Notes under the pieces: generated by a model
Told to the model about the DNA's origin: nothing
The model's input: only the letters and a program-made list of their open reading frames with translations
The model's database searches: none
Program-made: the position numbers and the translations under genes
Shown here: positions 4,950-17,921 of the stretch, piece by piece
Numbering within the stretch: the first letter of the stretch is position 1
How the letters are laid out: every line of letters starts with the position of its first letter
Virus genome (UHGV): UHGV-0256895
Direction: 5' to 3' (one strand)
Source of the DNA: a virus
Length of the DNA: 18,404 nt

Positions 4950-5235
4950 GTTGTCCCCTTACGCGCTGACCTGGCTGGCGAAATTCACCAGGTACTGATC
5001 GGTGATGCGCTGGCGCAGCATCAGATTTTCAAGTGGCGGCACTGGCGTGTAGTCATAGTCGATGGTGAGTTTTCCGGCTTTCAGCGTGTCTTTGTCGTTC
5101 ACCGACTCATCCAGCCAGCAATCACCACCAATGAGATAGCCCTGACTGACCAGGCTGCGTATTTTGGCGCGGATACCTTCGATAATGTCGCGGGCCAGCG
5201 ACGGGTTAAGCGGTTTATCCACCGCCCACATGTGT

Positions 5236-5315
5236 GCTTCTGCCATTGTGTCCGTCAGCACCTGCGCCGTGCGGGTGTAGTTTTCGAAGGCAAAAAGCGG
5301 ATCATCGCTCAGACA
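5236..5315. repeat. Left copy of a perfect 80 bp inverted repeat inside FI (native-orientation copy)
   Basis: Plus 5236..5315 is the exact reverse complement of 5518..5597 (checked base by base, 80/80); encodes [27 protein letters not shown] in the minus-strand sheath frame. Confidence 0.9.
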
Positions 5316-5517
5316 TGCACTTGGTCTGCGTGCCAAAATTGATGAGCAGACCGGGTGGCACAAAAGCCTGTCCAACGTGGGCGTGAACGGTGTCACCGGA
5401 ATTTCTGCAGATGTGTTCTGGGATCTGCAGGACCCGGCAACCGATGCAGGTCTGCTGAACCAGAACGACGTCACCACGCTTGTGCGTAAAGACGGTTTCC
5501 GCTTCTGGGGTTCCCGC

Positions 5518-5597
5518 TGTCTGAGCGATGATCCGCTTTTTGCCTTCGAAAACTACACCCGCACGGCGCAGGTGCTGACGGACACAATGGCAGAAGC
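5518..5597. repeat. Right copy of the perfect 80 bp inverted repeat inside FI (inverted copy)
   Basis: Reverse complement of 5236..5315; encodes the same 26 residues on the plus strand, continuous with the inverted segment 5317..5517. Confidence 0.9.
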
Positions 5598-6248
5598 GTG
5601 TCCCAGCCAGTAAAGTCGGGCCAGATCAGCATTCCTTCGCGCTGGCTGAAGTTTTCACGGTAAGTGATCGCCTCCTGTACCGTCTTGCAGCCATACGCTG
5701 ACAGGTAAGCAAACCCACGCAGGCTTTGCGCCACGCTCAGCAACTCAGTCGCAACGGCTTTGTTATCGTGACCTGGCACGCCGAGAATGCGCGGTTTAAC
5801 GCCGAGCTGTGACTGGGCAGATAACAGAGCTTTCATGCCTGTTTTTTTACCTTCAGCAGTCACTGCGCCGATGATATTGGTCGTGGTTTCTTCTTCCGTT
5901 TCACCCTGCGGCACACGCACAACAACGGTCACGGGTTTTGCCTGGTCAGCGATGGCATCCAGCGAACGGGCCAGCGTGCCGGACTCACCCGCTTTACCGC
6001 TGGCAGTCAGCACATCAGTGATCAGCACAGGTTTGTTAAGAGGAAACATTTTTGCATCGGCATCATCGCCCGTGCAGACCATGCCCACGATGGCGGTGCT
6101 CACCGTGGTAATGGATCGGGTGCCTTCGTTGACTTCAACAACGCGCACCCCGTGGTGGTAATCCTGAGCCATAGTGGCGAACCTCCTGATTGGATTAGGC
6201 TTCGCCCTATGTTGAAGTGATTGTGCCTGACAAACAGCTAAGCGCAGT

Positions 6249-6266
6249 TGTACCGTTATTCACACA
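6249..6266 (-). promoter_or_regulatory. Candidate Ogr-type late promoter element (TGT-N12-ACA) for the FI-FII-E-T-U-D operon
   Basis: TGTACCGTTATTCACACA, centred about 85 bp upstream of the FI start codon (6172); P2 late promoters carry this dyad near -55. The motif alone is expected by chance a few times in 18 kb; position is what supports it. Confidence 0.4.
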
Positions 6267-6314
6267 AAATGACGGTATTTGTCTACTTGCAGGGATAATC
6301 AAAATAATGCTGAT

Positions 6315-6887
6315 TCAGGGGGATTCATTACTCTTATTTGCCGGAAATTTTCTATAAATTGTGGAAACACCCACATCAAAAATCAGTGCAATACGCTGTC
6401 TTGATTCTCCGGCCTCGAGTAAACGCCCAATCTGTGCCCACTGTTCGGTGGTCAACTTAGGACGGCGTCCACCTACTCTGCCTTTGGCACGAGCTGCAGC
6501 CAGCCCTGCCCTGGTACGTTCAACTATCAGTTCGCGTTCCATTTCAGCCAGGGCACCCATGACATGAAAAAAGAAACGGCCCATTGGGGTACTGGTATCA
6601 ATACTGTCAGTCAGGCTTCGGAAATTCACACCACGCTGGCGCAACTCCTCTATCAGCGTAACAAGATGCCGCATACTGCGCCCCAACCTGTCCAGCTTCC
6701 AGACAACCAGCGTGTCTCCTGCCGATAGTGTCCTGAGCAGCTTTTTCAGCCCCGGTCTGTCGGACTTAGTGCCACTGATTTTATCCTCAAAAATCCGCTC
6801 ACATCCCGCGCAGTTCAGTGCATTACGTTGCAAATCGGTGTTCTGGTCATTTGTTGACACGCGTACATAGCCAATAAGCATGATCAT
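6315..6887 (-). CDS. Serine DNA invertase of the Gin/Pin/Cin/Hin family
   Basis: 190 aa ORF starting M(IM)LIGYVRVSTNDQNTDLQRNAL..., the characteristic N-terminal catalytic motif of the invertase subfamily of serine recombinases, with a C-terminal HTH-like region; true start may be the third Met (6881). Located beside an invertible tail-fibre segment. Confidence 0.85.
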   Translation of the reverse strand: MIMLIGYVRVSTNDQNTDLQRNALNCAGCERIFEDKISGTKSDRPGLKKLLRTLSAGDTLVVWKLDRLGRSMRHLVTLIEELRQRGVNFRSLTDSIDTSTPMGRFFFHVMGALAEMERELIVERTRAGLAAARAKGRVGGRRPKLTTEQWAQIGRLLEAGESRQRIALIFDVGVSTIYRKFPANKSNESP

Positions 6888-6962: not shown

Positions 6963-7298
6963 GGAGCAAAATTAGGCGCAGCGGTGTGTGTGGCCGGCTC
7001 TACAGGCTATATGACTATCCCGGCAATGGTCGCCGGGAAAGAACGGGTGATCATATTGCAGTGGTTTGGTGCTGCTACAACTGATTATGTGACACCAGTA
7101 ACTGCGAATTTCCCTATTGCATTCCCAAATGAGTGCATGATTCCGTTATTTAGTGATGTATCAACTGGGGCAGTTGATTTGAGTTCTACAGCCGCATATA
7201 GCTTAGCGGTGGGCCGATCATACTATACGACGGTAACAAGAACTCAGATTACATGTGCTGGCTACGGTGGCTTTAGAGTTTTCGCGATTGGATGGTGA
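6951..7298 (+). CDS. Silent alternative tail-fibre C-terminal segment (Sv'), no start of its own; would fuse to the constant part of H after inversion
   Basis: Plus frame from the crossover core gives [69 protein letters not shown]...GFRVFAIGW, sharing ILQW, FPIAFP and GGF..FA.G motifs with the expressed H C-terminus. The track ORF 6909..7298 covers it. Confidence 0.6.
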
Positions 7299-7303
7299 TT
7301 AAT

Positions 7304-7723
7304 ATGTTTTATTCTGCAAAAGAAAATGCGTTCTACGCTGATGAGCTAAAAAGTATTTATGAAAATGCAGGTAGCTGGCCTGACGATGCCGTTGAAGTAG
7401 ACTATTCCGTATTCGTTGAGTTTGCCGGAGAATCACCTAACGGAAAATTACGCGCTCCTAATTCTGATGGTTTACCTGAATGGATAGATATTCCCGAACC
7501 AACTGAAGAGGAAATTATTGCGTTGGCAGAAGCCGAAAAATCGCGACTGCGTGCTTCAGCTGACTCTGAAATAGAATGGCGGCAGGACGCCGTTGATGCG
7601 GGGATCGCGACGGAAGAAGAAACTGTTTCATTAGCCGAATGGAAAAAATACCGGGTGCTGCTGATGCGAGTTGATACAGCAGACCCGGACTGGCCTACTC
7701 CTCCGGCGACTCAGGCCAGTTGA
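7304..7723 (+). CDS. Alternative tail fibre assembly protein (Tfa, U'-like), silent orientation
   Basis: [28 protein letters not shown]... parallels the N-terminus of the expressed Tfa ([30 protein letters not shown]...); lies directly after the silent fibre segment. Track ORF starts 4 codons earlier at 7292. Confidence 0.7.
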
Positions 7724-8126
7724 TATCTGGTGCGCTGGATATGTCCACAGATTCCAGCGCATCGAGATAATCCAGCCACTCGTTATACTGGGCCTTCTCG
7801 TCGTCTGTAAGTCGCCCCAGCGCAGCTTTACCCGGCCACTGCTTGCTGTTTATATACTCATTAGCCTGATCGATACGATACTGTTTTTCAGCTTCAGCTG
7901 CTGCGATTTCCTCCTCATGGCTTAAAGGTGGAATGTCTACCCATGCCGGCATTCCATCCTCAGTAGCTCCACGAGTTTTACCCTCTGGTGGCATCCCCGA
8001 ATATTCAGTGAATGTCTCATCTGAGACGGCTATGAGATCGTCAGGCCAGTTTCTACTCGCTTCATAAACATCTCTGAGCTCATCAGGGTAGAAAGCGTTA
8101 TTTAATGCTGAATAAAAATAAGCCAT
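7695..8126 (-). CDS. G: Tail fibre assembly protein (Tfa, gpG / Mu U-like), expressed orientation
   Basis: 143 aa ORF immediately downstream of the tail fibre gene; Tfa-like N-terminus; converges on the alternative Tfa with a 29 bp 3' overlap. Confidence 0.75.
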
Positions 8127-8129
8127 TTA

Positions 8130-9545
8130 TTAATACCCCACAGCAAAATAGTTAAACCCGCCAGCGCCGATGGATGATTCAGCGTTGGTTCCTGTCTGAT
8201 AAGCGCGTAGCTGGAAATTAGTTCTCGTAAAATCCTGGGCGGTTAACGCAAAACCTTGACCTGTACCGCCAACACTCTGGTCTGTTGCAACAACACATAG
8301 CGCCCTGGTTGGAAACGCAATCGGGAATGATACTGTTTCTGGGGATGTTTTCGTTTTGGCTATTGCCCATTGAAGAATTAACCCGCCTGGCAGGTATTGA
8401 TACCCCGAATCGGCTCGCTGATTACCAAATGAAGACATGTCCGGAATCTGTCCGGAACCAGTGCCAACATTTTTTTTTGCCGCATCTCCTAAACCAAGGT
8501 ATGCGAGAAGACCAGCGACATCCTTTCCACTCAAATTAGTCAGCGTATTGTCCAGCGGTTGTTTACCTGCCAGCGCATTAAGCATTGTCGTGGCAAAGTT
8601 CGGATCATTCCCCAACGCCGACGCCAGTTCGTTCAGTGTATCCAGTGCCGCAGGTGCAGAACCTACCATTGCTGCAATCGCCGATTTCACAAAAGCCGTG
8701 GTGGCAATCTGTGTATTGTTGACCGACTGTGCAGCAGTGGGGGCTGTTGGCGTTCCGGTGAGTGCCGGACTCGACAACGGCGCTTTCAGTGCCAGCGCAT
8801 TGTTAATGGTGGTACTGAAATTCGGATCATTGTTAATGGCTGCGGCTATTTCTTTCAGCGTGTCCAGCGTGGCTGGCGCACCATTAATAAGAGCCGTCAG
8901 TGCCGCCTGAACAAACGCGGTGGTCGCAACCTGCGTGGTGTTATTCCCTGCCGCTGGAGTTGGCGCTTTTGGTGTCCCGGTAAACGTCGGACTTTCTTTG
9001 GGTGCATACTGTGAATGCGGGTCCGGTGCGGCAAGATGTTTTGCCATCTGATCATCCACGTACACCTTCAGCTCCAGTACCTTGTCATCCACATACTTGC
9101 GGGTTGCCAGCACTACGGCAGGGTCGATTTTCAGGGTGATATTGTCCGTGCTGCTGGTAATCAGCACCATGCGCACGGTCTGGGTACGCCCGCTGCCTTC
9201 AGCCAGTTGCGGCTTATAGCTTTCCGGGCAGTTGCCCACGGCAATCAATGCCCCGGACTCATCAAACAGGCCCACTTCACGTATCCACCAACCGCCCTCG
9301 TTTTCAGGGATCACCTGTTCAGCAATAATCTGGCTGCTGTTCTGCGGGTCGATATAGAGCATATTCAGCGCAGCCCGGCGTTTCTCATTTACCAATGCTG
9401 TCTGCTTGGCGTCCGGCGTTGGCAATGTTCCGCCGCCATCGCCCACCGCCATATGGGTAATTTTTAGCGGCACACCGAGCGCGGCGGCGCTGGCAAGTTT
9501 CGCCGCGCCAATATCCGTCAGCAGGGTATAAAATTTTGTGCTCAT
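8130..9545 (-). CDS. H: Tail fibre protein gpH (constant N-terminal part plus currently expressed variable C-terminal segment)
   Basis: 471 aa ORF; N-terminus MSTKFYTLLTDIGAAKLASAAALGVPLKITHMAVGDGGG... is typical of P2-type fibres; two tandem repeats of about 72 aa; crossover site embedded about 116 codons from the stop. Confidence 0.85.
   Translation of the reverse strand: MSTKFYTLLTDIGAAKLASAAALGVPLKITHMAVGDGGGTLPTPDAKQTALVNEKRRAALNMLYIDPQNSSQIIAEQVIPENEGGWWIREVGLFDESGALIAVGNCPESYKPQLAEGSGRTQTVRMVLITSSTDNITLKIDPAVVLATRKYVDDKVLELKVYVDDQMAKHLAAPDPHSQYAPKESPTFTGTPKAPTPAAGNNTTQVATTAFVQAALTALINGAPATLDTLKEIAAAINNDPNFSTTINNALALKAPLSSPALTGTPTAPTAAQSVNNTQIATTAFVKSAIAAMVGSAPAALDTLNELASALGNDPNFATTMLNALAGKQPLDNTLTNLSGKDVAGLLAYLGLGDAAKKNVGTGSGQIPDMSSFGNQRADSGYQYLPGGLILQWAIAKTKTSPETVSFPIAFPTRALCVVATDQSVGGTGQGFALTAQDFTRTNFQLRAYQTGTNAESSIGAGGFNYFAVGY
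8484..8509. other. Invertase crossover site 2 (gix/hix-like), inside the tail fibre gene at the constant/variable boundary
   Basis: ATCTCCTAAACC AA GGTATGCGAGAA on the plus strand; inverted relative to site 1; falls on the GLG codons of H (..LAYLGLGDAAKK..), the point where the silent segment (..[12 protein letters not shown]..) would join in frame. Confidence 0.6.
8556..8990 (-). repeat. Tandem duplication of about 72 codons inside the tail fibre gene
   Basis: Protein segments ..NTTQVATTAFVQAALTALINGAPATLDTLKEIAAAINNDPNFSTTINNALALKAP and ..NNTQIATTAFVKSAIAAMVGSAPAALDTLNELASALGNDPNFATTMLNALAGKQP are clearly homologous. Confidence 0.7.
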
Positions 9546-11048: not shown

Positions 11049-11394
11049 TCTCTGCTCCTGTTGATACGGAAAGGGAAACAGGCACACCGTTATTACGCCG
11101 CCCGGTCAGCTCCACCACCATTGAACCGTCAAAATTGCTGTTAATGGTGATGGAATCCAGCGTCAGCCGTGGCTCCCAGCGACTCAGCGCCACATACACT
11201 GCCGACATGACCTGCAGGCGTAATGCCGGATTTTGTGGCTGGTCTATCAGTGCCGACAGCAGGGAACCATATTCCCGACGGGCAATGCGGCTACCCTGCG
11301 GCGTCAGCAAAATGTCCCGCACCGACTGGCGCAGATGATCAATATCAGTAATGGCTTTACCGCTGGTATTGTTCATCCCGCTATAAAGCGTCAT
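11035..11394 (-). CDS. W: Baseplate wedge protein gpW (gp25-like)
   Basis: 119 aa ORF MTLYSGMNNTSGKAITDIDHLRQSVRDILLTPQGSRIARREYGSLLSALIDQP... with a W/gp25-like pattern; overlaps V stop and J start. Confidence 0.8.
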   Translation of the reverse strand: MTLYSGMNNTSGKAITDIDHLRQSVRDILLTPQGSRIARREYGSLLSALIDQPQNPALRLQVMSAVYVALSRWEPRLTLDSITINSNFDGSMVVELTGRRNNGVPVSLSVSTGAENGSD

Positions 11395-11969
11395 ACCGGG
11401 CCTCCGGTTGTGTCGCCGCCTTTCAGGACGTCAGTATGCTGATGCGCATCAACCACGATCCCGTTAGAACTCATCGCTCCGCCGCCCTGGGTAACGCCAC
11501 CATTGATCACCACTTCGCTGTTAATGCGCGTGCGGTCAGCCTCCAGTACAAACTCACTGGTTTTCATGGTGATGTTGTCAGCGGCCTCAATGACCATTGA
11601 TTTGATGCCCCTGACATACCAGCGCCCGGTAGTGGGTTCGTATTCAAACCAGCCGCCGTCAGGATGTTCTGTCACGCAGGCGTCTGCCGACGTCGACGGT
11701 GGTGCGAACTGATTCGAATAGACAGCGGGCAGCGCAAAGGCAGTTTCCAGATTGCCGCCCAGACTCAGCAGCACCACCTGCTCACCTTCCGATGGTCGCC
11801 ACCATGTGCGGGCATTCCCGGCACGCAGCGTCAGCCAGCTGATCCAGTTGGTTTCAAGCTCGCCCGTTTTCACCCGGCAAAGCCAGTTTTCCCGGTCCAC
11901 TTCGGTGACTACACCAGTGCGGATCAGGTTGGTGATAAGGCGCATGATTTCGGTTAGTTGTGCGTTCAT
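11391..11969 (-). CDS. V: Baseplate spike protein gpV
   Basis: Track ORF runs to 12077 with a TTG start, but similarity to P2 gpV begins at the internal ATG (11969): MNAQLTEIMRLITNLIRTGVVTEVDRENWLCRVKTGELETNWISWLT... Confidence 0.75.
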   Translation of the reverse strand: MNAQLTEIMRLITNLIRTGVVTEVDRENWLCRVKTGELETNWISWLTLRAGNARTWWRPSEGEQVVLLSLGGNLETAFALPAVYSNQFAPPSTSADACVTEHPDGGWFEYEPTTGRWYVRGIKSMVIEAADNITMKTSEFVLEADRTRINSEVVINGGVTQGGGAMSSNGIVVDAHQHTDVLKGGDTTGGPV

Positions 11970-12015
11970 AGGGTTAGGTTGCACGGACCTTGAATCTATG
12001 GCATCAATACGTCCT

Positions 12016-12033
12016 TGTGTGGTAAATGACACA
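12016..12033 (-). promoter_or_regulatory. Candidate late-promoter dyad (TGT-N12-ACA) upstream of V
   Basis: TGTGTGGTAAATGACACA, centred about 55 bp upstream of the V start codon, which leaves almost no leader if the P2 geometry holds; overlaps the putative promoter and 5' end of the opposite-strand cargo ORF. Motif alone is weak evidence. Confidence 0.3.
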
Positions 12034-12064
12034 AATACAATTCCAATCAAAGAAAGGTAAAAGA

Positions 12065-12595
12065 ATGAGCCATCCAATTGATTATTACGCTATAGAAGAA
12101 CACGCAAGAATAATTGAGCAATTATGCTGTTCATCTGAATTTTATTTACAGCGTATATATTCCACACAGAAAGTATATGATGGTTCTATAGTAACTGAAT
12201 TTGAAATGGAGGAGTTATCGTACAACGGATGGTTGGAATATACCATTAGCAACAATCTTATTAGCCTTTGTACAAAACTACGAATTCTCCAAGACACTAG
12301 TGAACATGAGTGGAACCCAGATTACTCACCTGAGAAAGAAGCATTTGAAGAACATGAAAATATACTTTTTGTTATAGATGGTCATGTTAAAGATTCTATA
12401 CGCGAATGCTGCAATAAAATTATTCACGCATTAAGTTTTGAGTTAACAAAAAAGACCGGCAAAAATGGAATAAAATATTGGGACGGTTCTATTATTGCTT
12501 CTGGGGTTCAAAACAAAAAAAACTGGAAAATTAAAATAGACCTTTTCCCTTTTTGCCAAAGCATAAAAAGTTATTTAAGTTTATTAAGAGCGTAA
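12065..12595 (+). CDS. Hypothetical protein, AT-rich cargo (moron) ORF in the S-V junction; function unknown
   Basis: Track ORF 12026..12595; the RBS-supported start is ATG 12065 (GAAAGG 7 nt upstream), giving a 176 aa soluble, acidic protein (MSHPIDYYAIEEHARIIEQLCCSSEFYLQRIYSTQKVYDG...). Strongly AT-rich and on the opposite strand to all flanking tail genes; no similarity I recognise. Confidence 0.6.
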   Translation: MSHPIDYYAIEEHARIIEQLCCSSEFYLQRIYSTQKVYDGSIVTEFEMEELSYNGWLEYTISNNLISLCTKLRILQDTSEHEWNPDYSPEKEAFEEHENILFVIDGHVKDSIRECCNKIIHALSFELTKKTGKNGIKYWDGSIIASGVQNKKNWKIKIDLFPFCQSIKSYLSLLRA

Positions 12596-12600
12596 ACATT

Positions 12601-13053
12601 CTAATTTTTCATCAATAAATACTTTAAAAGTAAATCTCTTACTTCATTTTCAGTATGTTCATTTAAACCCAGCAATTTTCGGGATGGATACTTAATGACT
12701 CCCCCCTTTGGACTGACGCGATCGCGCAGACCGTAGTGATGAACACGGGCAATACGCTGTACCTTACCTTCAAACTGTACGCTGGCAGAATCCGCGCTGG
12801 CGGCAGTTCTCAGGTATTTTGTGGTGCGCAGCTTTGCAAACATCTGACGTTTGATGCGCCCCTTCTTGCTGCGTGCTGTTACCCTGCGCGGCTCATAACT
12901 GCTGCCATCTGGATTGCGCTGCATCCTGATATTCTGCTGCTGTGTCCGGCGCAGTTCCTGCGCCAGCTGGCGCATCATTCGGCTTCTTGCGGCTGGTTCC
13001 AGATTCGCCAGCAAAGCACTCAGCCAGTCGTCCACCTTCTGCAGTTCAGCCAC
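12601..13053 (-). CDS. S: Tail completion protein gpS
   Basis: 150 aa ORF with ..LEPAARSRMMRQLAQELRRTQQQNI..NPDGSSYEPRRVTARSKKGRIKRQMFAKLRT..VQRIARVHHYGL.. resembling P2 gpS; the last ~20 codons lie in AT-rich DNA. Confidence 0.8.
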   Translation of the reverse strand: MAELQKVDDWLSALLANLEPAARSRMMRQLAQELRRTQQQNIRMQRNPDGSSYEPRRVTARSKKGRIKRQMFAKLRTTKYLRTAASADSASVQFEGKVQRIARVHHYGLRDRVSPKGGVIKYPSRKLLGLNEHTENEVRDLLLKYLLMKN

Positions 13054-13477
13054 GTTTCACCGTCCACATTTCTTCAGGTTCATCGGGTTCCGCTACTGCT
13101 TCAACGCTCGACACACTTCCGTCAGTGCTGACCAGCACACGTTCCGTCAGTTGCAGGTTGAGGCTGATATCACAGACATCGTTGCGCAGAATATCCACCT
13201 CAAAGGTGAATAACTTTTCCCGTAACGCCGGATTATTGATGGCATCGGGCTGGTTATCACGCAGCCACAGCAAAACCGGGGCCATCAGCAGATTCTGGTC
13301 GCCGCTGAAATCCTCAATCACCACGTTGAGGGTATAACGGTACTCCCATGACATGGAGCTGGCCCCCGTGGCAACCAGCGAACCGTTATCCACAAACAGA
13401 TGCAGCTTATCCGGGTTATTGCGGACATAAGGCACTGCTTTATTGAGGGCGTGGCGCAGGGATTGTGGTTTGTTCAC
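13046..13477 (-). CDS. R: Tail completion protein gpR
   Basis: Track ORF 13046..13498; likely start is GTG 13477 with AGGAG 7 nt upstream (..VNKPQSLRHALNKAVPYVRNNPDKLHLF..); gpR-like. Confidence 0.75.
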   Translation of the reverse strand: MNKPQSLRHALNKAVPYVRNNPDKLHLFVDNGSLVATGASSMSWEYRYTLNVVIEDFSGDQNLLMAPVLLWLRDNQPDAINNPALREKLFTFEVDILRNDVCDISLNLQLTERVLVSTDGSVSSVEAVAEPDEPEEMWTVKRG

Positions 13478-15475: not shown

Positions 15476-16068
15476 TCAGCGGCTATCATTGCGCAGTCTG
15501 CGCTCCAGCTGCTGTTTGTCTTTTTTCACGCCACAGCGGGGATCGAGCTGTAACGCATGGTTGAGATGATTAAGGGCGGAAGCCGGATTACTTTCACTCA
15601 GGACAGCGCCAATCGCTTTATGCAGACGCGCCCGTGACTGGTCCGGCATATCCAGACCGTCTGTCAGCTCCAGCGTCTGCAGCAGCAGATCGACATCAAA
15701 GCCGGTAGTGGCAAGCATTGCGCTCTGCGCTGCGTCTGCCATTTCCTCTGCCAGCACGGTCTGCACGTTGCGGTTACCCAGCGGCATCACCCAGCCATGA
15801 CGCAGGGCATGACGCCCGATCTCCAGCGCTCCGACATAATCTCCGGCATCAATGCGCCACAGCATCACGTACATCAGCACGTCATCCTGTTGAGCGCCTC
15901 CGGCAGCCAGGACACCCTCCGCCCAGGCGGCGTATTTCGGCAGCAGCTCCACCTTGATTTCCGCTTTTTTGACCGTGGACTGAACGCCCTTGAGACGGCG
16001 GCGGTCTTCTGCCAGTTGCAGCAGCATCAGGTCATAGCCCGACGCGTGGCGAACGCTGCGCGCTGCTG
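15476..16068 (-). pseudogene. M: Terminase small (endonuclease) subunit gpM body; first 18 codons are separated from it by the N/M inversion
   Basis: Minus frame ..SAARSVRHASGYDLMLLQLAEDRRRLKGVQSTVKKAEIKVELLPKY.. is gpM-like from 16068 down to the stop at 15476 but has an in-frame stop just upstream of 16069; the native start (MSLSPARQHRLRVQAECQ) lies on the plus strand at 16276..16329. The track ORF starts at the internal Met 16027. Confidence 0.7.
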
Positions 16069-16272
16069 ATCACCCGTCTGGATAACCTGTCCATTTACTG
16101 GCAGGAAGACACCCGCCGCCGTTCGGTTATCGACAACCCGAAACGTGACCGGATTGAAAATTTTGAATCCGTTAACGAAGCCTATGTGGTTGAGGACTAC
16201 CGCTGCGCCGCACTGGTGGAAAACATCCAGATTGGCGACTTCAGCGCCGCCGCAGCAGAAACCGGAGCGTAA
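16069..16272 (+). other. N: Displaced C-terminal 67 codons of capsid gene N, on the opposite strand
   Basis: Plus frame ITRLDNLSIYWQEDTRRRSVIDNPKRDRIENFESVNEAYVVEDYRCAALVENIQIGDFSAAAAETGA* matches the remembered C-terminus of P2 gpN; the frame is open without a start codon and is absent from the track. Confidence 0.7.
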
Positions 16273-17047
16273 ACCATGAGCCTGAGTCCCGCACGGCAGC
16301 ATCGCCTGCGCGTTCAGGCTGAATGTCAGACAGCAGCTCACGACCGCAAATCACCACCAGATCGTCATCGTCCTGGTAGACCACGTCGATAAGCTCATTG
16401 ACCGCATCCATCACCACGGCGTCCAGGTTGGCATATTCGCCACCTTTCCCGACTTTCACCGCACCCGGTGTGGTTTCACCGCCCGTGGTGGTGCTGCCCA
16501 TGACGTGATCCGGTGCATCCTCACGGATTTTCTGCAGCCAGCCTTTGTTCACATCCTGCAGCAGCGGGTTTTCGCTACGGTTGGAGGTTTTCGCACGCTT
16601 CACGCCGTTAAAGCCGATCATGATGCGGTCCAGTGCCTGGCGTTTCACGATGGCGTCACGGATACGCACCTGGAAATCCTGAAACTTCGCCCACAGGTCC
16701 AGCTTCGCGTAGGTCAGCACCGTGTCAAAGTTGGTCTGTTCGCATTTGTATTCCACATCGATCATCAGCGTCGGATCGACAGGTTCACGCTCTTTCGCGG
16801 TGGTGTCAGTGGTTCCGGCAATGGTGCTGCCAACACCCAATCCAAGCAGCTGACCGGACTGCTCAGTCACTGGCGTGACGTTAATCAGCGTCAGGAAAGC
16901 GGCGGACTGCTGGATCTGGTCTTCCAGCGTCTGCTGCACAGACGGCTCTACGGTGAACTTGCTGGACAGTTCCTCAACTGCCACACCGTTCAGACGCGCC
17001 AGTTGCTGCAGGTAAGCGTTAAAAGCAAAACGGGTATTCTTCTTCAT
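16241..17047 (-). pseudogene. N: Major capsid protein gene N, N-terminal 239 codons intact; C-terminus displaced by the inversion
   Basis: Track ORF 268 aa; MKKNTRFAFNAYLQQLARLNGVAVEELSSKFTVEPSV...LVVICGRELL is gpN-like to about 16331; the last 29 codons (SDIQPERAGDAAVRDSGSWFTLRFLLRRR) are antisense of the displaced M start and N end. Confidence 0.8.
16276..16329 (+). other. M: Displaced first 18 codons of terminase small subunit gene M, on the opposite strand
   Basis: ATG 3 nt after the displaced N stop, MSLSPARQHRLRVQAECQ, resembling the gpM N-terminus; joins in frame to the minus-strand M body through the inverted repeat when the segment is re-inverted. Confidence 0.6.
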
Positions 17048-17063: not shown

Positions 17064-17807
17064 TCAGCAATTGGTCAGAGTGTCAGCGGGGGCGTTGCCG
17101 CCTGTTGCACGCTGGCGGTAGTCCTGGCGGCTGTCTTCATGACTCAGCTTATCCACCAGTTCGTTAAAGGCGGTTTGCTGCTCCTGCAGAGCAGTCTCCA
17201 GCTCAGACAGGCGTTCTTCCTGCTCAGACAGGGATTTTTCGGTGCGCGTGCTCAGGTTCTGCTGCTCAGTGGCGACCAGTTCCACGGCCTTATGCACATC
17301 AGAGAACCGGACGTCATCGGACTGCTCTTTTTTGGTAAACAGCGCCGTGACGCGGGCAAACAGGGACGGCTTGTCCTCCTGGATTTCTTCCAGTTCGATC
17401 ACCGTTTCCTCTGCAGCGGTAAAAAGATTGGCAGGATTCTGCTTGCGGTTTGCCAGCGGGTTATGGGCTGCACTGGCGCTGAATGTCAGCATTTCCGTAC
17501 CCAGACTGGCGGGATCATCAGTGGCAGCCAGGCCGACCAGGTAGGCTTTGCCCGTATCAGCAAACTTCGGGCTGACTTCCATAGAGGTGAATAATTTCTG
17601 GCCTTTTTTCACCAGTTCCACCAGGGACTCCGTTGGCTCAACGTCGGCATACAGTGCCATCTTGCCTGCCAGCGGACCTTCCGCGATTTCTTCAGCAAAC
17701 CCTGCGGTTTGTGTGGTTGTCGGTACAAATACCGCGCATTGTTTCACTGCCCCCATCACCGCAACCATAAGGCTCCAGTAAGTTTTTTCTAACGGAGCAC
17801 GGCTCAT
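17064..17807 (-). CDS. O: Capsid scaffold protein gpO (body); native 5' end uncertain
   Basis: Track ORF 17064..18029; from about residue 108 (..GFAEEIAEGPLAGKMALYADVEPTESLVELVKKGQKLFTSMEVSPKFADTGKAYLVGLAATDDPASLGTE...TGGNAPADTLTNC) it is clearly gpO-like. Upstream of about 17710 similarity is lost; the first 74 codons of the track ORF are antisense of terminase P. Confidence 0.7.
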   Translation of the reverse strand: MSRAPLEKTYWSLMVAVMGAVKQCAVFVPTTTQTAGFAEEIAEGPLAGKMALYADVEPTESLVELVKKGQKLFTSMEVSPKFADTGKAYLVGLAATDDPASLGTEMLTFSASAAHNPLANRKQNPANLFTAAEETVIELEEIQEDKPSLFARVTALFTKKEQSDDVRFSDVHKAVELVATEQQNLSTRTEKSLSEQEERLSELETALQEQQTAFNELVDKLSHEDSRQDYRQRATGGNAPADTLTNC

Positions 17808-17853
17808 GACAGTGAAAGCAAAGCGTTTTCGCATCGGGGTGGAAGGTGCCACT
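17806..17853 (+). other. O: gpO N-terminal motif encoded on the opposite strand (possible third inverted fragment)
   Basis: Plus ATG 17806: MTVKAKRFRIGVEGAT matches the gpO N-terminus as I remember it (MAKKVSKFFRIGVEGDT); after codon 16 similarity ends. The 52-codon frame (to 17964) is too short for the track. Confidence 0.45.
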
Positions 17854-17921
17854 AGAAAGTTGCAACCGTTCACAGCTGGAAAAAACGCGACAAGTGGGGT
17901 GACTATGGGCCGCTGGATCAG

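What the first reader, a model, noticed from the sequence alone, without database searches (positions are those of the whole stretch)
12016..12660. AT-rich opposite-strand cargo ORF in the S-V junction: candidate undescribed accessory or defence gene
A roughly 650 bp block of much lower GC than the rest of the window sits exactly between tail genes S and V, where I recall P2 carrying its non-essential orf30. It encodes one 176 aa protein on the strand opposite to every flanking gene, with its own RBS and a plausible sigma70 promoter (TTGTGT 12015..12020, 15 nt spacer, TACAAT 12036..12041). I recognise nothing in the protein, which looks soluble and has several Cys. Cargo genes at fixed positions in P2-like prophages are often anti-phage or superinfection-exclusion factors, so this is the most likely place for a novel system here.
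Basis: partly seen in the sequence, partly recalled or inferred. Interest (0 to 1): 0.7.

Follow-up and report, generated by a model that had tools for sequence, protein, structure and literature searches.

The report
Unknown cargo gene in P2-like prophage
A real, lysogen-expressed gene of unknown function sits in a swap-prone slot between two tail genes of a P2-like E. coli prophage; it belongs to a small unannotated protein family with an enzyme-like conserved motif and is a good but untested candidate for a phage-competition gene.

Summary
Window 11970-12690 is an AT-rich block (GC about 0.33, flanks 0.55-0.60). It carries one 176-aa ORF (12065-12595, +) between gpV and gpS of a P2-like prophage that is 100% identical here to Escherichia phage Cartapus of E. 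coli LF82.

The gene is real: dN/dS is 0.09 against a Salmonella homologue, and published LF82 RNA-seq shows transcription while the flanking tail genes are silent.

It is cargo. Only 22 of 5,426 complete E. coli genomes carry it. The same S-V junction is empty in about half of related prophages. Elsewhere it holds at least 11 unrelated single AT-rich genes, including TIR, FRG and DUF6216 proteins and P2 Orf30.

Homologues (about 150 clusters, none annotated) are solitary. They occur in other P2-like hotspots, in Vibrio integron cassettes, and at one end of an Aeromonas filamentous prophage.

My best guess is a stand-alone HEPN-like nuclease used in phage competition. This is untested.

The parts
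12065..12595 (+). Cargo CDS, 176 aa (stop included). Equals Cartapus gp14 / LF82_787 / WP_000019234.1 and is a member of phrog_18838.
   Evidence: Translation. 100% identity to Cartapus. PGAP CDS in LF82. PHROG hit at 6.6e-127. dN/dS 0.094. Family alignments A1 and A2.
12052..12058 (+). Shine-Dalgarno-like GAAAGGT; its GG lies 7 nt upstream of ATG 12065.
   Evidence: Read directly from the sequence. The conserved M-S-H-P N-terminus supports this start.
12015..12034 (-). TTGT-N12-ACAA dyad: the Ogr-family late-activator binding site of the V-operon promoter. Its centre is 55.5 nt upstream of the V ATG.
   Evidence: P2 annotation of 'activator binding site; activation of pV promoter' shows the same geometry. 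The dyad is kept in all 13 junction variants aligned, including the empty one. It occurs 3 times in the window against 0.36 expected, upstream of FI, V and O/P.
12036..12041 (+). TACAAT, a possible -10 element of the cargo promoter. It is unverified; the real transcription start is unknown.
   Evidence: Sequence. Not called by the consensus scan. Transcription of the gene in lysogens is seen in published RNA-seq.
11970..12690 (.). AT-rich exchangeable module (GC about 0.33): P_V promoter region, cargo gene and a cargo-linked 3' end of S. Boundaries are approximate.
   Evidence: Composition. Relatives with an empty junction align only to the V part and to S from about 12689 onward.
12601..12690 (-). 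3' end of gpS (its last 30 or so codons), encoded inside the AT-rich module. It is diverged from the S tail of relatives, and each cargo type has its own version.
   Evidence: S C-termini compared across 12 loci.
12601..13053 (-). gpS (tail completion / virion morphogenesis), the last gene of the upstream late operon. It is convergent with the cargo gene; the two stop codons are 5 bp apart.
   Evidence: Pfam Phage_tail_S in homologous loci. No terminator-like hairpin found.
11391..11969 (-). gpV (baseplate spike), the first gene of the V late operon. It is divergent from the cargo gene.
   Evidence: Pfam Phage_base_V in homologous loci.

Best explanation
Shown: the gene is a horizontally mobile, single-gene cargo ("moron") in the inter-operon gap between the S-terminated late operon and the V late operon of a P2-like prophage (Cartapus type). 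This is the same slot as P2 orf30. It is transcribed in the lysogen independently of the silent late genes.

Shown: it encodes a soluble, cytoplasmic 20.6-kDa protein of an unannotated family of about 150 clusters. Family members are always solitary.

Inferred: the protein is an enzyme. Its invariant polar residues (R73, R113, N117, K118, H121, with near-invariant H3, D77, E114, C116) lie on or next to a short helix packed on a long helical bundle. The best-supported chemistry is a HEPN-like, metal-independent RNase. N117-x3-H121 matches the N-x3-H part of the canonical R-N-x3-H motif. The Arg sits one helical turn earlier, at R113. R73/D77 on the preceding long helix would play the role of the second HEPN charged site.

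Inferred: the biological role is competition with other phages or mobile elements. The protein would stay inactive in the lysogen and be triggered on superinfection, giving abortive infection or exclusion.

Inferred: late transcription reading through S in antisense, and Ogr binding over the cargo promoter, would silence the gene during Cartapus's own lytic growth.
For: Real gene and expression:
- dN/dS is 0.094.
- The family has 93 representatives at E<=1e-3 among 1.84 billion proteins and 154 clusters in a profile search, all about 175-205 aa.
- In LF82 RNA-seq (units log2(fpkm+5)) the gene reads 5.1-6.0 in DMEM/macrophage conditions, while V and S stay at 2.3-3.3; the floor is 2.32.

Cargo and hotspot:
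- 22 of 5,426 genomes carry it, against 1,039 with the flanks.
- In a sample taken at even steps down the ranking, 27 of 49 junctions were empty, 20 held other single genes and 2 held this gene.
- Twelve cargo genes compared (this one, ten from other E. coli prophages and P2 Orf30) fall into 11 unrelated families, all with GC 0.31-0.37.
- These include TIR_2, FRG (PADLOC PDC-S15, 8.5e-32) and DUF6216 proteins.
- Literature already lists orf30 as one of three variable regions in P2-like phages (PMC3091744).

Mobility:
- Homologues sit in the same slot in Salmonella, Enterobacter and another P2-like phage.
- One lies next to gpD/gpU in a distant P2-like phage.
- Two are attC-flanked integron cassettes in Vibrio and Aliivibrio.
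- One lies beside Zot of an Aeromonas filamentous prophage.
- One is two genes from a ThsB-like TIR protein, and one is next to a Lit cassette.

Enzyme-like features:
- AF2 models have pLDDT 90.3 and 95.2 with the same topology.
- The HEPN description in PMC3710099 fits: the motif at the end of a helix entering a loop, a polar residue after R, a second charged site on the preceding helix, inserts between helices 2 and 3, and a beta-hairpin after the motif in Csx1.
- A bona fide DUF4145 HEPN protein of the same phage has K-D-D-G-N-D-G-A-H, with the same spacing as R-E-C-C-N-K-I-I-H.

Regulation: the Ogr dyad geometry comes. The convergent stops 5 bp apart with no terminator come.
Against: - No phenotype exists for this gene or any homologue.
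- There is no hit in PADLOC, Pfam or NCBIfam, even at E<=1. Scanning all 64 family members gave no consistent Pfam hit.
- The profile search against PDB sequences found nothing.
- Foldseek found nothing below E=0.1 in PDB or BFVD.
- hhalign against a DUF4145 alignment gave probability 0.1%.
- R113-x7-H121 lies outside the defining Rx4-6H spacing.
- The motif helix is only 9 residues long.
- Expression in LB overnight culture is near the floor and below the authors' moron cut-off.
- Only 2 of the 10 contexts examined outside P2-like tail-gene slots have a recognisable defence neighbour.
- No autoinhibitory domain or partner is evident to keep a solitary nuclease in check.
Confidence: 0.4

Rival explanations
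1. It is a lysogenic-conversion gene with a host-benefit function unrelated to phages, such as a stress or niche-adaptation enzyme. It is carried as cargo because it helps the lysogen in particular environments.
For: Expression is higher in DMEM and inside macrophages than in LB overnight culture. Several chromosomal homologues sit among ordinary metabolic genes, twice next to an M14 peptidase. There is no defence-database hit. Integron cassettes and prophage morons carry many non-defence functions.
Against: There is no signal peptide or membrane segment and no metabolic-enzyme homology. The gene hops between slots that elsewhere hold TIR, FRG and Lit genes. There is no conserved metabolic neighbour across 12 contexts.
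Confidence: 0.2
2. It is a phage-benefit gene: an anti-defence or host-takeover factor that helps Cartapus-type phages or other mobile elements establish themselves, for example by inactivating a host immune component.
For: Small helical proteins are common inhibitors. The gene travels with phages (P2-like, filamentous) and integrons, which also carry counter-defence genes. In one genome it follows an Imm33 immunity-type gene.
Against: It is oriented against both late operons and is transcribed in the repressed prophage while the late genes are silent. That pattern fits lysogenic rather than lytic use. An invariant R/N/K/H constellation is unusual for fast-evolving inhibitors. Many homologues are chromosomal and far from any phage.
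Confidence: 0.13
3. It is the toxin of an addiction module that stabilises its carrier, such as an integron array or prophage. The antidote would be unrecognised, for example an antisense RNA from the convergent S transcript or a cis-encoded small RNA.
For: Integron arrays that hold homologues also hold Phd/ParE modules. The similarity is to HEPN-type toxins. The S operon is convergent with no terminator, so an antisense transcript is possible.
Against: No conserved adjacent ORF or conserved flanking non-coding sequence is seen across 12 very different contexts. There is no Rfam hit. The P2-specific antisense arrangement cannot explain the chromosomal and integron copies.
Confidence: 0.1
4. 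It is a non-catalytic binding protein, for example a metal- or nucleotide-binding sensor, or an immunity-type protein. The conserved residues would form a ligand site using H3, C116 and H121.
Against: Two invariant Arg plus Asn and Lys are more typical of phosphate or nucleic-acid chemistry than of a Cys/His metal site. Only one Cys is widely conserved (52 of 64 sequences). There is no partner effector gene.
Confidence: 0.1
5. It is a chance ORF or a decaying remnant in AT-rich junk DNA.
Against: dN/dS is 0.094. There are 154 homologous clusters with invariant residues. The AF2 model has pLDDT 95. The gene is transcribed. A 176-codon open frame is unlikely by chance in DNA of 33% GC.
Confidence: 0.01

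Closest known systems
Phage P2 Orf30 (NP_046770.1), the nonessential gene between S and V
   Same: It occupies the identical slot and architecture: downstream of S, upstream of the Ogr-activated P_V, on the strand opposite to the tail genes. It is AT-rich (GC 0.34), a single gene, and of unknown function.
   Different: There is no sequence similarity (BLASTP). Orf30 is 261 aa with a hydrophobic N-terminus and has no Pfam or PADLOC hit. P2 keeps a terminator between S and orf30, which this locus lacks.
HEPN-superfamily stand-alone RNases: HepT/DUF86 toxins (7ae2, 5yep), integron-cassette HEPN (3jrt), DUF4145, AbiJ-type proteins, and the integron cassette 'Esos'
   Different: The spacing is R-x7-H, not Rx4-6H. 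A Cys occupies the canonical Arg position. A 4-stranded beta-sheet is inserted around the motif helix. There is no Pfam or hhalign similarity. There is no MNT antitoxin or other partner. Its relation to Esos could not be tested because no sequence was available.
P2-like prophage defence hotspots (old/tin at gpA-portal; Z/fun; tail-cI locus)
   Same: These are AT-rich cargo in P2-like prophages, swapped between close relatives and expressed from the prophage (Rousset 2022 PMC9122126, Vassallo 2022 PMC9519451, Egorov 2024 bioRxiv). One distant homologue of this gene sits next to gpD, in one of those other loci.
   Different: The S-V junction is not among the hotspots analysed in the passages of those papers that I searched. 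It holds one gene at a time. No cargo at this junction, including this gene, has a demonstrated anti-phage phenotype as far as I could find.
Other cargo at the same S-V junction: TIR-domain protein, FRG-domain protein (PADLOC PDC-S15), DUF6216 (in BL21(DE3))
   Same: Same slot and same single-gene, AT-rich design. Each has its own diverged gpS C-terminal tail.
   Different: These are unrelated proteins. The TIR gene is on the same strand as the tail genes.
phrog_18838
   Same: This is the family itself (E 6.6e-127, full length).
   Different: The PHROG carries no function and uses the 13-codon-longer start.

Membership tests
HEPN superfamily (Anantharaman et al. 2013, PMC3710099) | [quoted passage not shown] | tested here: inconclusive
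HEPN superfamily | [quoted passage not shown] | tested here: not met
   The invariant residues are R113-E-x-C-N117-K-x-x-H121, which is R-x7-H. Only the N-x3-H part and the placement at a helix end match. The canonical Arg position is C116.
HEPN superfamily | Detectable sequence or profile similarity to a recognised HEPN family (Pfam clan CL0291 and the Abi/HEPN models) | tested here: not met
   No Pfam hit at E<=1 for the protein, and none consistent at E<=0.1 across 64 members. hhalign against a DUF4145 alignment gave probability 0.1%. HHpred against all HEPN families could not be run.
HEPN superfamily | Metal-independent RNase activity; dimer with a composite active site | not testable with these tools
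   Needs biochemistry or multimer modelling.
P2-like 'orf30-position' cargo (moron) | Lies between S and V, outside the late operons; variable among relatives; atypical composition | tested here: met
   PMC3091744.
P2-like 'orf30-position' cargo (moron) | Transcribed autonomously in the lysogen | tested here: met
   Published strand-resolved RNA-seq of LF82 gives 5.1-6.0 log2(fpkm+5) against 2.3-3.3 for V and S in four of five conditions. The gene is below the authors' 5-fold moron cut-off in LB overnight culture. The transcription start is not mapped.
P2 Orf30 protein family | Sequence homology to P2 Orf30 | tested here: not met
   No BLASTP hit at E<=1e-3.
Known anti-phage defence systems (PADLOC-DB v2) | Match to a defence-protein HMM | tested here: not met
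   Zero families at E<=1.
Known anti-phage defence systems | Protection against phage when expressed | not testable with these tools
   No experiment was found in the searched literature.
Type II toxin-antitoxin module | Conserved adjacent partner gene | tested here: not met
   The gene is solitary, with different neighbours, in 12 contexts.
Integron gene cassette (applies to homologues, not to the window copy) | A single ORF bounded by attC-type repeats in a unidirectional array | tested here: met
   Repeats of 129-130 nt (TAACAAA...GCGTTA) lie between every gene in L024 and L025, flanking the homologue.

The most novel reading that the evidence does not exclude
The protein founds a previously undescribed enzyme family: a helical bundle with an inserted beta-sheet and an R...R-E-x-C-N-K-x-x-H site. 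It would not be a HEPN derivative, and it would act alone as sensor and effector of a new anti-phage mechanism. The S-V (orf30) junction would then be an unmined, single-gene defence hotspot of P2-like prophages, with at least 11 unrelated cargo families, most of them unknown.
Probability: 0.2. Interest if true: 0.7.

Novelty: new variant of a known kind. Interest (0 to 1): 0.5.

Why it matters
Prophage hotspots have been the richest source of new bacterial immune genes. In P2-like phages, the hotspot passages I read cover the cos-proximal, Z/fun and tail-cI loci.

This work shows that the S-V junction behaves the same way in E. coli. About half of related prophages carry one of many unrelated AT-rich single genes there, among them TIR and FRG proteins. 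The junction therefore gives a defined, small set of candidates, including the DUF6216 gene in the P2-like prophage of BL21(DE3).

The specific gene is an unusually clean test case. It is one small soluble protein with a confident structure model and a handful of invariant residues to mutate. There is published evidence of expression in a clinically relevant strain (AIEC LF82). Homologues move between myovirus prophages, a filamentous prophage and Vibrio integron cassettes.

If it proves to be a nuclease-type exclusion factor, it would extend the sequence space of HEPN-like effectors or add a new one. If it has no phage phenotype, it becomes a marker for non-defence cargo in such hotspots.

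Tried and rejected
- Pfam, NCBIfam and PADLOC on the protein at E<=1 gave nothing. Pfam on all 64 family members gave only scattered single hits.
- A PDB sequence-profile search gave one chance hit.
- Foldseek against PDB and BFVD gave nothing below E=0.1. AFDB50 was not available on the server.
- hhalign of the family against Cartapus gp01 (DUF4145), and against a 30-sequence DUF4145 alignment, gave probability about 0.1%. The striking motif parallel (K-D-D-G-N-D-G-A-H against R-E-C-C-N-K-I-I-H) is therefore not backed by profile similarity.
- Two long "homologues" (P0098, P0103) were rejected as false hits to helicase-associated (HA) repeats.
- Upstream ATG 12026 (189 aa) was rejected as the start.
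- Terminator and Rfam searches of the module gave nothing.
- Searches for a paper on this protein (WP_000019234) found none. The 2026 P2/P4 defence preprint and Rousset 2022 do not mention orf30, gpS, gpV or a baseplate locus in the text searched.
- I tried to link the family to the HEPN-like integron cassette "Esos". No sequence or locus tag was retrievable.
- L045 was first read as a D-cI hotspot copy. BLAST showed a scrambled prophage remnant, with D and terminase fragments flanking the gene, so I do not count it as a clean hotspot.
Full report
**What is there**

The window matches Escherichia phage Cartapus (NC_070909.1; Peduoviridae, Elveevirus) at 100% identity over 11400-13100. Cartapus is the P2-like prophage 4 of adherent-invasive E. 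coli LF82.

Between gpV (11391-11969, -) and gpS (12601-13053, -) the GC content drops from 0.54-0.61 to 0.29-0.36. The 631 bp between the V start and the S stop have GC 0.33.

A single 176-aa ORF runs on the opposite strand, from ATG 12065 to stop 12595, with a GAAAGGT ribosome-binding site at 12052-12058. The ORF list extends the frame to ATG 12026, giving 189 aa. That start was used in the first LF82 annotation and in the PHROG. Fourteen of the 15 aligned homologues begin directly at M-S-H-P (P0013 has a four-residue extension), and ATG 12026 lies inside a regulatory dyad, so 12065 is the start, as PGAP also calls it.

The protein is acidic (pI 5.4) and hydrophilic, has no hydrophobic segment, and contains six Cys. 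Against the Salmonella homologue dN/dS is 0.094. It is a genuine protein-coding gene.

**Why the junction tolerates cargo, and a correction to the promoter call**

In the annotated P2 record the order is: S, the terminator of the O operon, nonessential Orf30 on the opposite strand, an "activator binding site; activation of pV promoter", then V. The S-V gap is therefore a boundary between two late operons.

In the window, TTGTGTGGTAAATGACACAA (12015-12034) is a TTGT-N12-ACAA dyad. Its centre lies 55.5 nt upstream of the V ATG, the same geometry as in P2. The dyad is retained at that distance in all 13 junction variants I aligned, including the empty one.

The extended dyad occurs three times in the window against 0.36 expected. 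The three sites lie upstream of FI, of V, and in the O/P intergenic region, which are the expected P2-type late promoters.

TACAAT at 12036-12041 may still be a -10 element for the cargo gene, but the consensus scan does not call a promoter there and no transcription start is mapped.

The cargo stop and the S stop are 5 bp apart, and no terminator-like hairpin or Rfam element is present. I infer two consequences. Late transcription through S would run antisense across the cargo gene. Ogr bound at the dyad would overlap the cargo core promoter. Together these would restrict expression to the lysogenic state.

**Expression**

Misson et al. (PLoS Pathog 2023, PMC9928086) give per-gene RNA-seq values for LF82. 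The gene is LF82_787 / CARTA_14. Units are log2(fpkm+5), so the floor is 2.32.

| Gene | BLB (LB to stationary phase) | B1 | B6 | MB1 | MB6 (macrophages, 6 h) |
|---|---|---|---|---|---|
| LF82_787 (this gene) | 3.51 / 2.71 | 5.06 / 5.16 | 5.89 / 5.97 | 5.11 / 5.28 | 4.57 / 4.38 |

- The table legend lists LB, DMEM and macrophage conditions. The text defines only BLB and MB6; I read B1/B6 as DMEM and MB1 as macrophage.
- In B1 and B6, V reads 2.4-3.1 and S reads 2.4-3.3.
- The CI repressor reads about 8.2 in B1 and B6.

The gene is thus transcribed independently of the late genes in the lysogen, at a modest level. It falls below the authors' 5-fold moron cut-off in LB.

**Cargo, not core**

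The AT-rich module is found in only 22 of 5,426 complete E. coli genomes, always in this prophage context. It is found in only the Cartapus records among 50,697 phage records. The V and S flanks occur in 1,039 genomes.

I sampled 49 records taken at even steps down the ranking in which both V and S matched:

- 27 junctions were empty (V-S span about 1,130 bp, with a 68-bp spacer of GC 0.50).
- 2 held this gene.
- 20 held other inserts.

I fetched eleven of these loci and compared their cargo. With this gene and P2 Orf30 that makes 12 cargo genes, which form 11 families unrelated by BLASTP, of 145-311 aa. All are single genes with GC 0.31-0.37, and all but one lie on the strand opposite to the tail genes.

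Three have recognisable domains:

- TIR_2.
- FRG, which matches the PADLOC candidate PDC-S15 at 8.5e-32.
- DUF6216, the cargo in the P2-like prophage of BL21(DE3).

The rest have no Pfam or PADLOC hit.

Each cargo type is linked to its own diverged version of the last 20-35 residues of gpS. The exchange boundaries therefore lie at the V start codon and inside the 3' end of S, and the P_V promoter region travels with the cargo.

The orf30 position was already listed with the TO and Z regions as a site of horizontally acquired genes in P2-like phages (PMC3091744, citing Nilsson and Haggard-Ljungquist). The passages of recent defence-hotspot papers that I read describe the gpA-portal, Z/fun and tail-cI loci, not this one.

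**The protein family**

- phmmer against 1.84 billion representatives found 93 hits at E<=1e-3. Two were false hits to HA-repeat proteins.
- A profile search of 5.8 billion clusters found 154.
- Members are about 175-205 aa and stand-alone. None has a Pfam domain or a name other than "hypothetical".
- The only library hit is phrog_18838, of unknown function.

Genomic contexts are diverse and the gene is always solitary:

- the S-V junction of P2-like prophages in Salmonella (74% identity), Enterobacter (60%) and another prophage (58%);
- next to gpD/gpU of a distant P2-like phage (29% identity);
- a scrambled P2-like remnant beside cI;
- attC-flanked cassettes in Vibrio campbellii and Aliivibrio chromosomal integrons, the latter adjacent to a Lit (Peptidase_U49) cassette;
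- beside Zot at one end of an Aeromonas filamentous prophage;
- two genes from a ThsB-like TIR protein in Stutzerimonas;
- a mobile element with AlpA;
- several small chromosomal islets, two of them next to an M14 peptidase and one preceded by Imm33.

**Structure and conserved residues**

AlphaFold2 gives the same fold with a 15-sequence alignment (pLDDT 90.3, pTM 0.86) and a 64-sequence alignment (pLDDT 95.2, pTM 0.89). The elements are H7-34, H45-78, H89-95, E101-105, H112-120, E124-131, E137-149, E152-159 and H160-175.

Across 64 sequences with a mean column identity of 27%:

- Invariant: R73, R113, N117, K118, H121 and W154.
- Near-invariant: M1, H3, D77, E114, C116, W139, G141 and G147.

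The motif L-R-E-x-C-N-K-I-I-H-A occupies the short helix 112-120, and H121 sits at its end.

- HepT toxins 7ae2_A, 5yep_B and 8xdj_A;
- the integron-cassette HEPN 3jrt_A;
- 1wwp_B and 1ylm_B;
- the kanamycin and aminoglycoside nucleotidyltransferases 6nlt_A and 4ebj_A, which carry a HEPN-type C-terminal domain.

**Testing the HEPN idea**

The HEPN survey (PMC3710099) defines the fold by these features:

- a four-helix up-down bundle;
- an Rx4-6H motif at the end of helix 3 running into the loop;
- a polar residue after the Arg;
- often a second charged site on helix 2;
- inserts between helices 2 and 3;
- in Csx1, a beta-hairpin right after the motif.

The family fits the placement and the N-x3-H half of the canonical R-N-x3-H. 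It also has R73/D77 on the preceding long helix. But the Arg is three residues further upstream, giving R-x7-H, with Cys in the canonical Arg position.

A bona fide DUF4145 (HEPN clan) protein of the same phage, gp01, has K-D-D-G-N-D-G-A-H with identical spacing. However, hhalign of the two family alignments gives probability 0.1%, and no HEPN Pfam model is hit by any of the 64 members.

Membership is therefore not established. One defining feature (motif spacing) and one operational criterion (profile similarity) were tested and not met. "Works like a HEPN RNase" remains the best mechanistic guess, at roughly one chance in three.

**Verdict**

- The cargo and hotspot reading is supported.
- The defence reading is plausible but untested.
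- The promoter detail is corrected.

The most likely account (confidence about 0.4 for the whole chain) is a lysogen-expressed, stand-alone, nuclease-type effector used in competition with other phages. The rivals are a non-phage host-benefit enzyme, a phage-benefit or anti-defence factor, an addiction toxin, and a ligand-binding protein.

The gene is already catalogued as hypothetical (Cartapus gp14, LF82_787, phrog_18838), so it is not a new sequence. Its family, motif, fold and distribution have not been described in anything I could find.

Noticed in passing
window 5316-5597, 16060-16323, 17701-17854: Three short segments (282, 264 and 154 bp) are inverted relative to the Cartapus reference. 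The first lies inside the tail-sheath gene FI and explains why the ORF list splits it (4959..5477 and 5471..6172). No complete E. coli genome among 5,426 has the FI inversion configuration. They may be artefacts of the source sequence or real disruptions.
   Followed up: partly
window 6972-8474 (next to Gin-like invertase 6315-6887): The invertible tail-fibre region (C-terminus of H and the tail-fibre assembly genes) is a different sequence from the Cartapus record, with at best 71% identity over 209 bp. The window therefore comes from a Cartapus-like prophage with another host-range cassette, not from the reference record itself.
   Followed up: partly
window 6248-6267, 12015-12034, 17709-17728: The TTGT-N12-ACAA dyad occurs exactly three times (0.36 expected), upstream of FI, of V, and in the O/P intergenic region. 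These are the Ogr-type late promoters of a P2-like phage.
   Followed up: partly
window 12601-12690 and loci L008-L018: The last 20-35 residues of gpS differ with each cargo type while keeping the pattern LLG-x-N. The recombination boundary of the cassette is therefore inside S, and gpS tolerates many C-terminal tails.
   Followed up: partly
L001 18591-19289 (Cartapus gp01; outside the window): The cos-proximal hotspot of the same phage carries a DUF4145 (HEPN-clan) protein with an N-terminal Cys-rich region. In LF82 RNA-seq it and its neighbour LF82_789 rise strongly in macrophages (4.65 to about 9.5 and 5.4 to about 10.5 log2 units).
   Followed up: partly
L010 974-1780 (E. coli BL21(DE3), NC_012971.2): The laboratory strain BL21(DE3) carries a DUF6216 protein in the S-V junction of its P2-like prophage. 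Its 3' end overlaps the S gene by 59 bp.
   Followed up: no
L022 7001-8866; L026 7631-9735: In Photobacterium and Chitinibacter the homologue is adjacent to an M14 peptidase gene, and in Chitinibacter it is preceded by an Imm33 immunity-type gene 17 bp upstream. This could be coincidence, a shared insertion site or a functional link; I could not tell which.
   Followed up: no
L013 966-1832 and L014 948-1799: Two of the unknown S-V cargo proteins (288 and 283 aa) are homologous to each other (35% identity). This is the only related pair among the 12 cargo genes compared.
   Followed up: no
window 12593-12603: The cargo and gpS genes are convergent, with stop codons 5 bp apart and no terminator. 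P2 has an annotated terminator in the equivalent place.
   Followed up: partly
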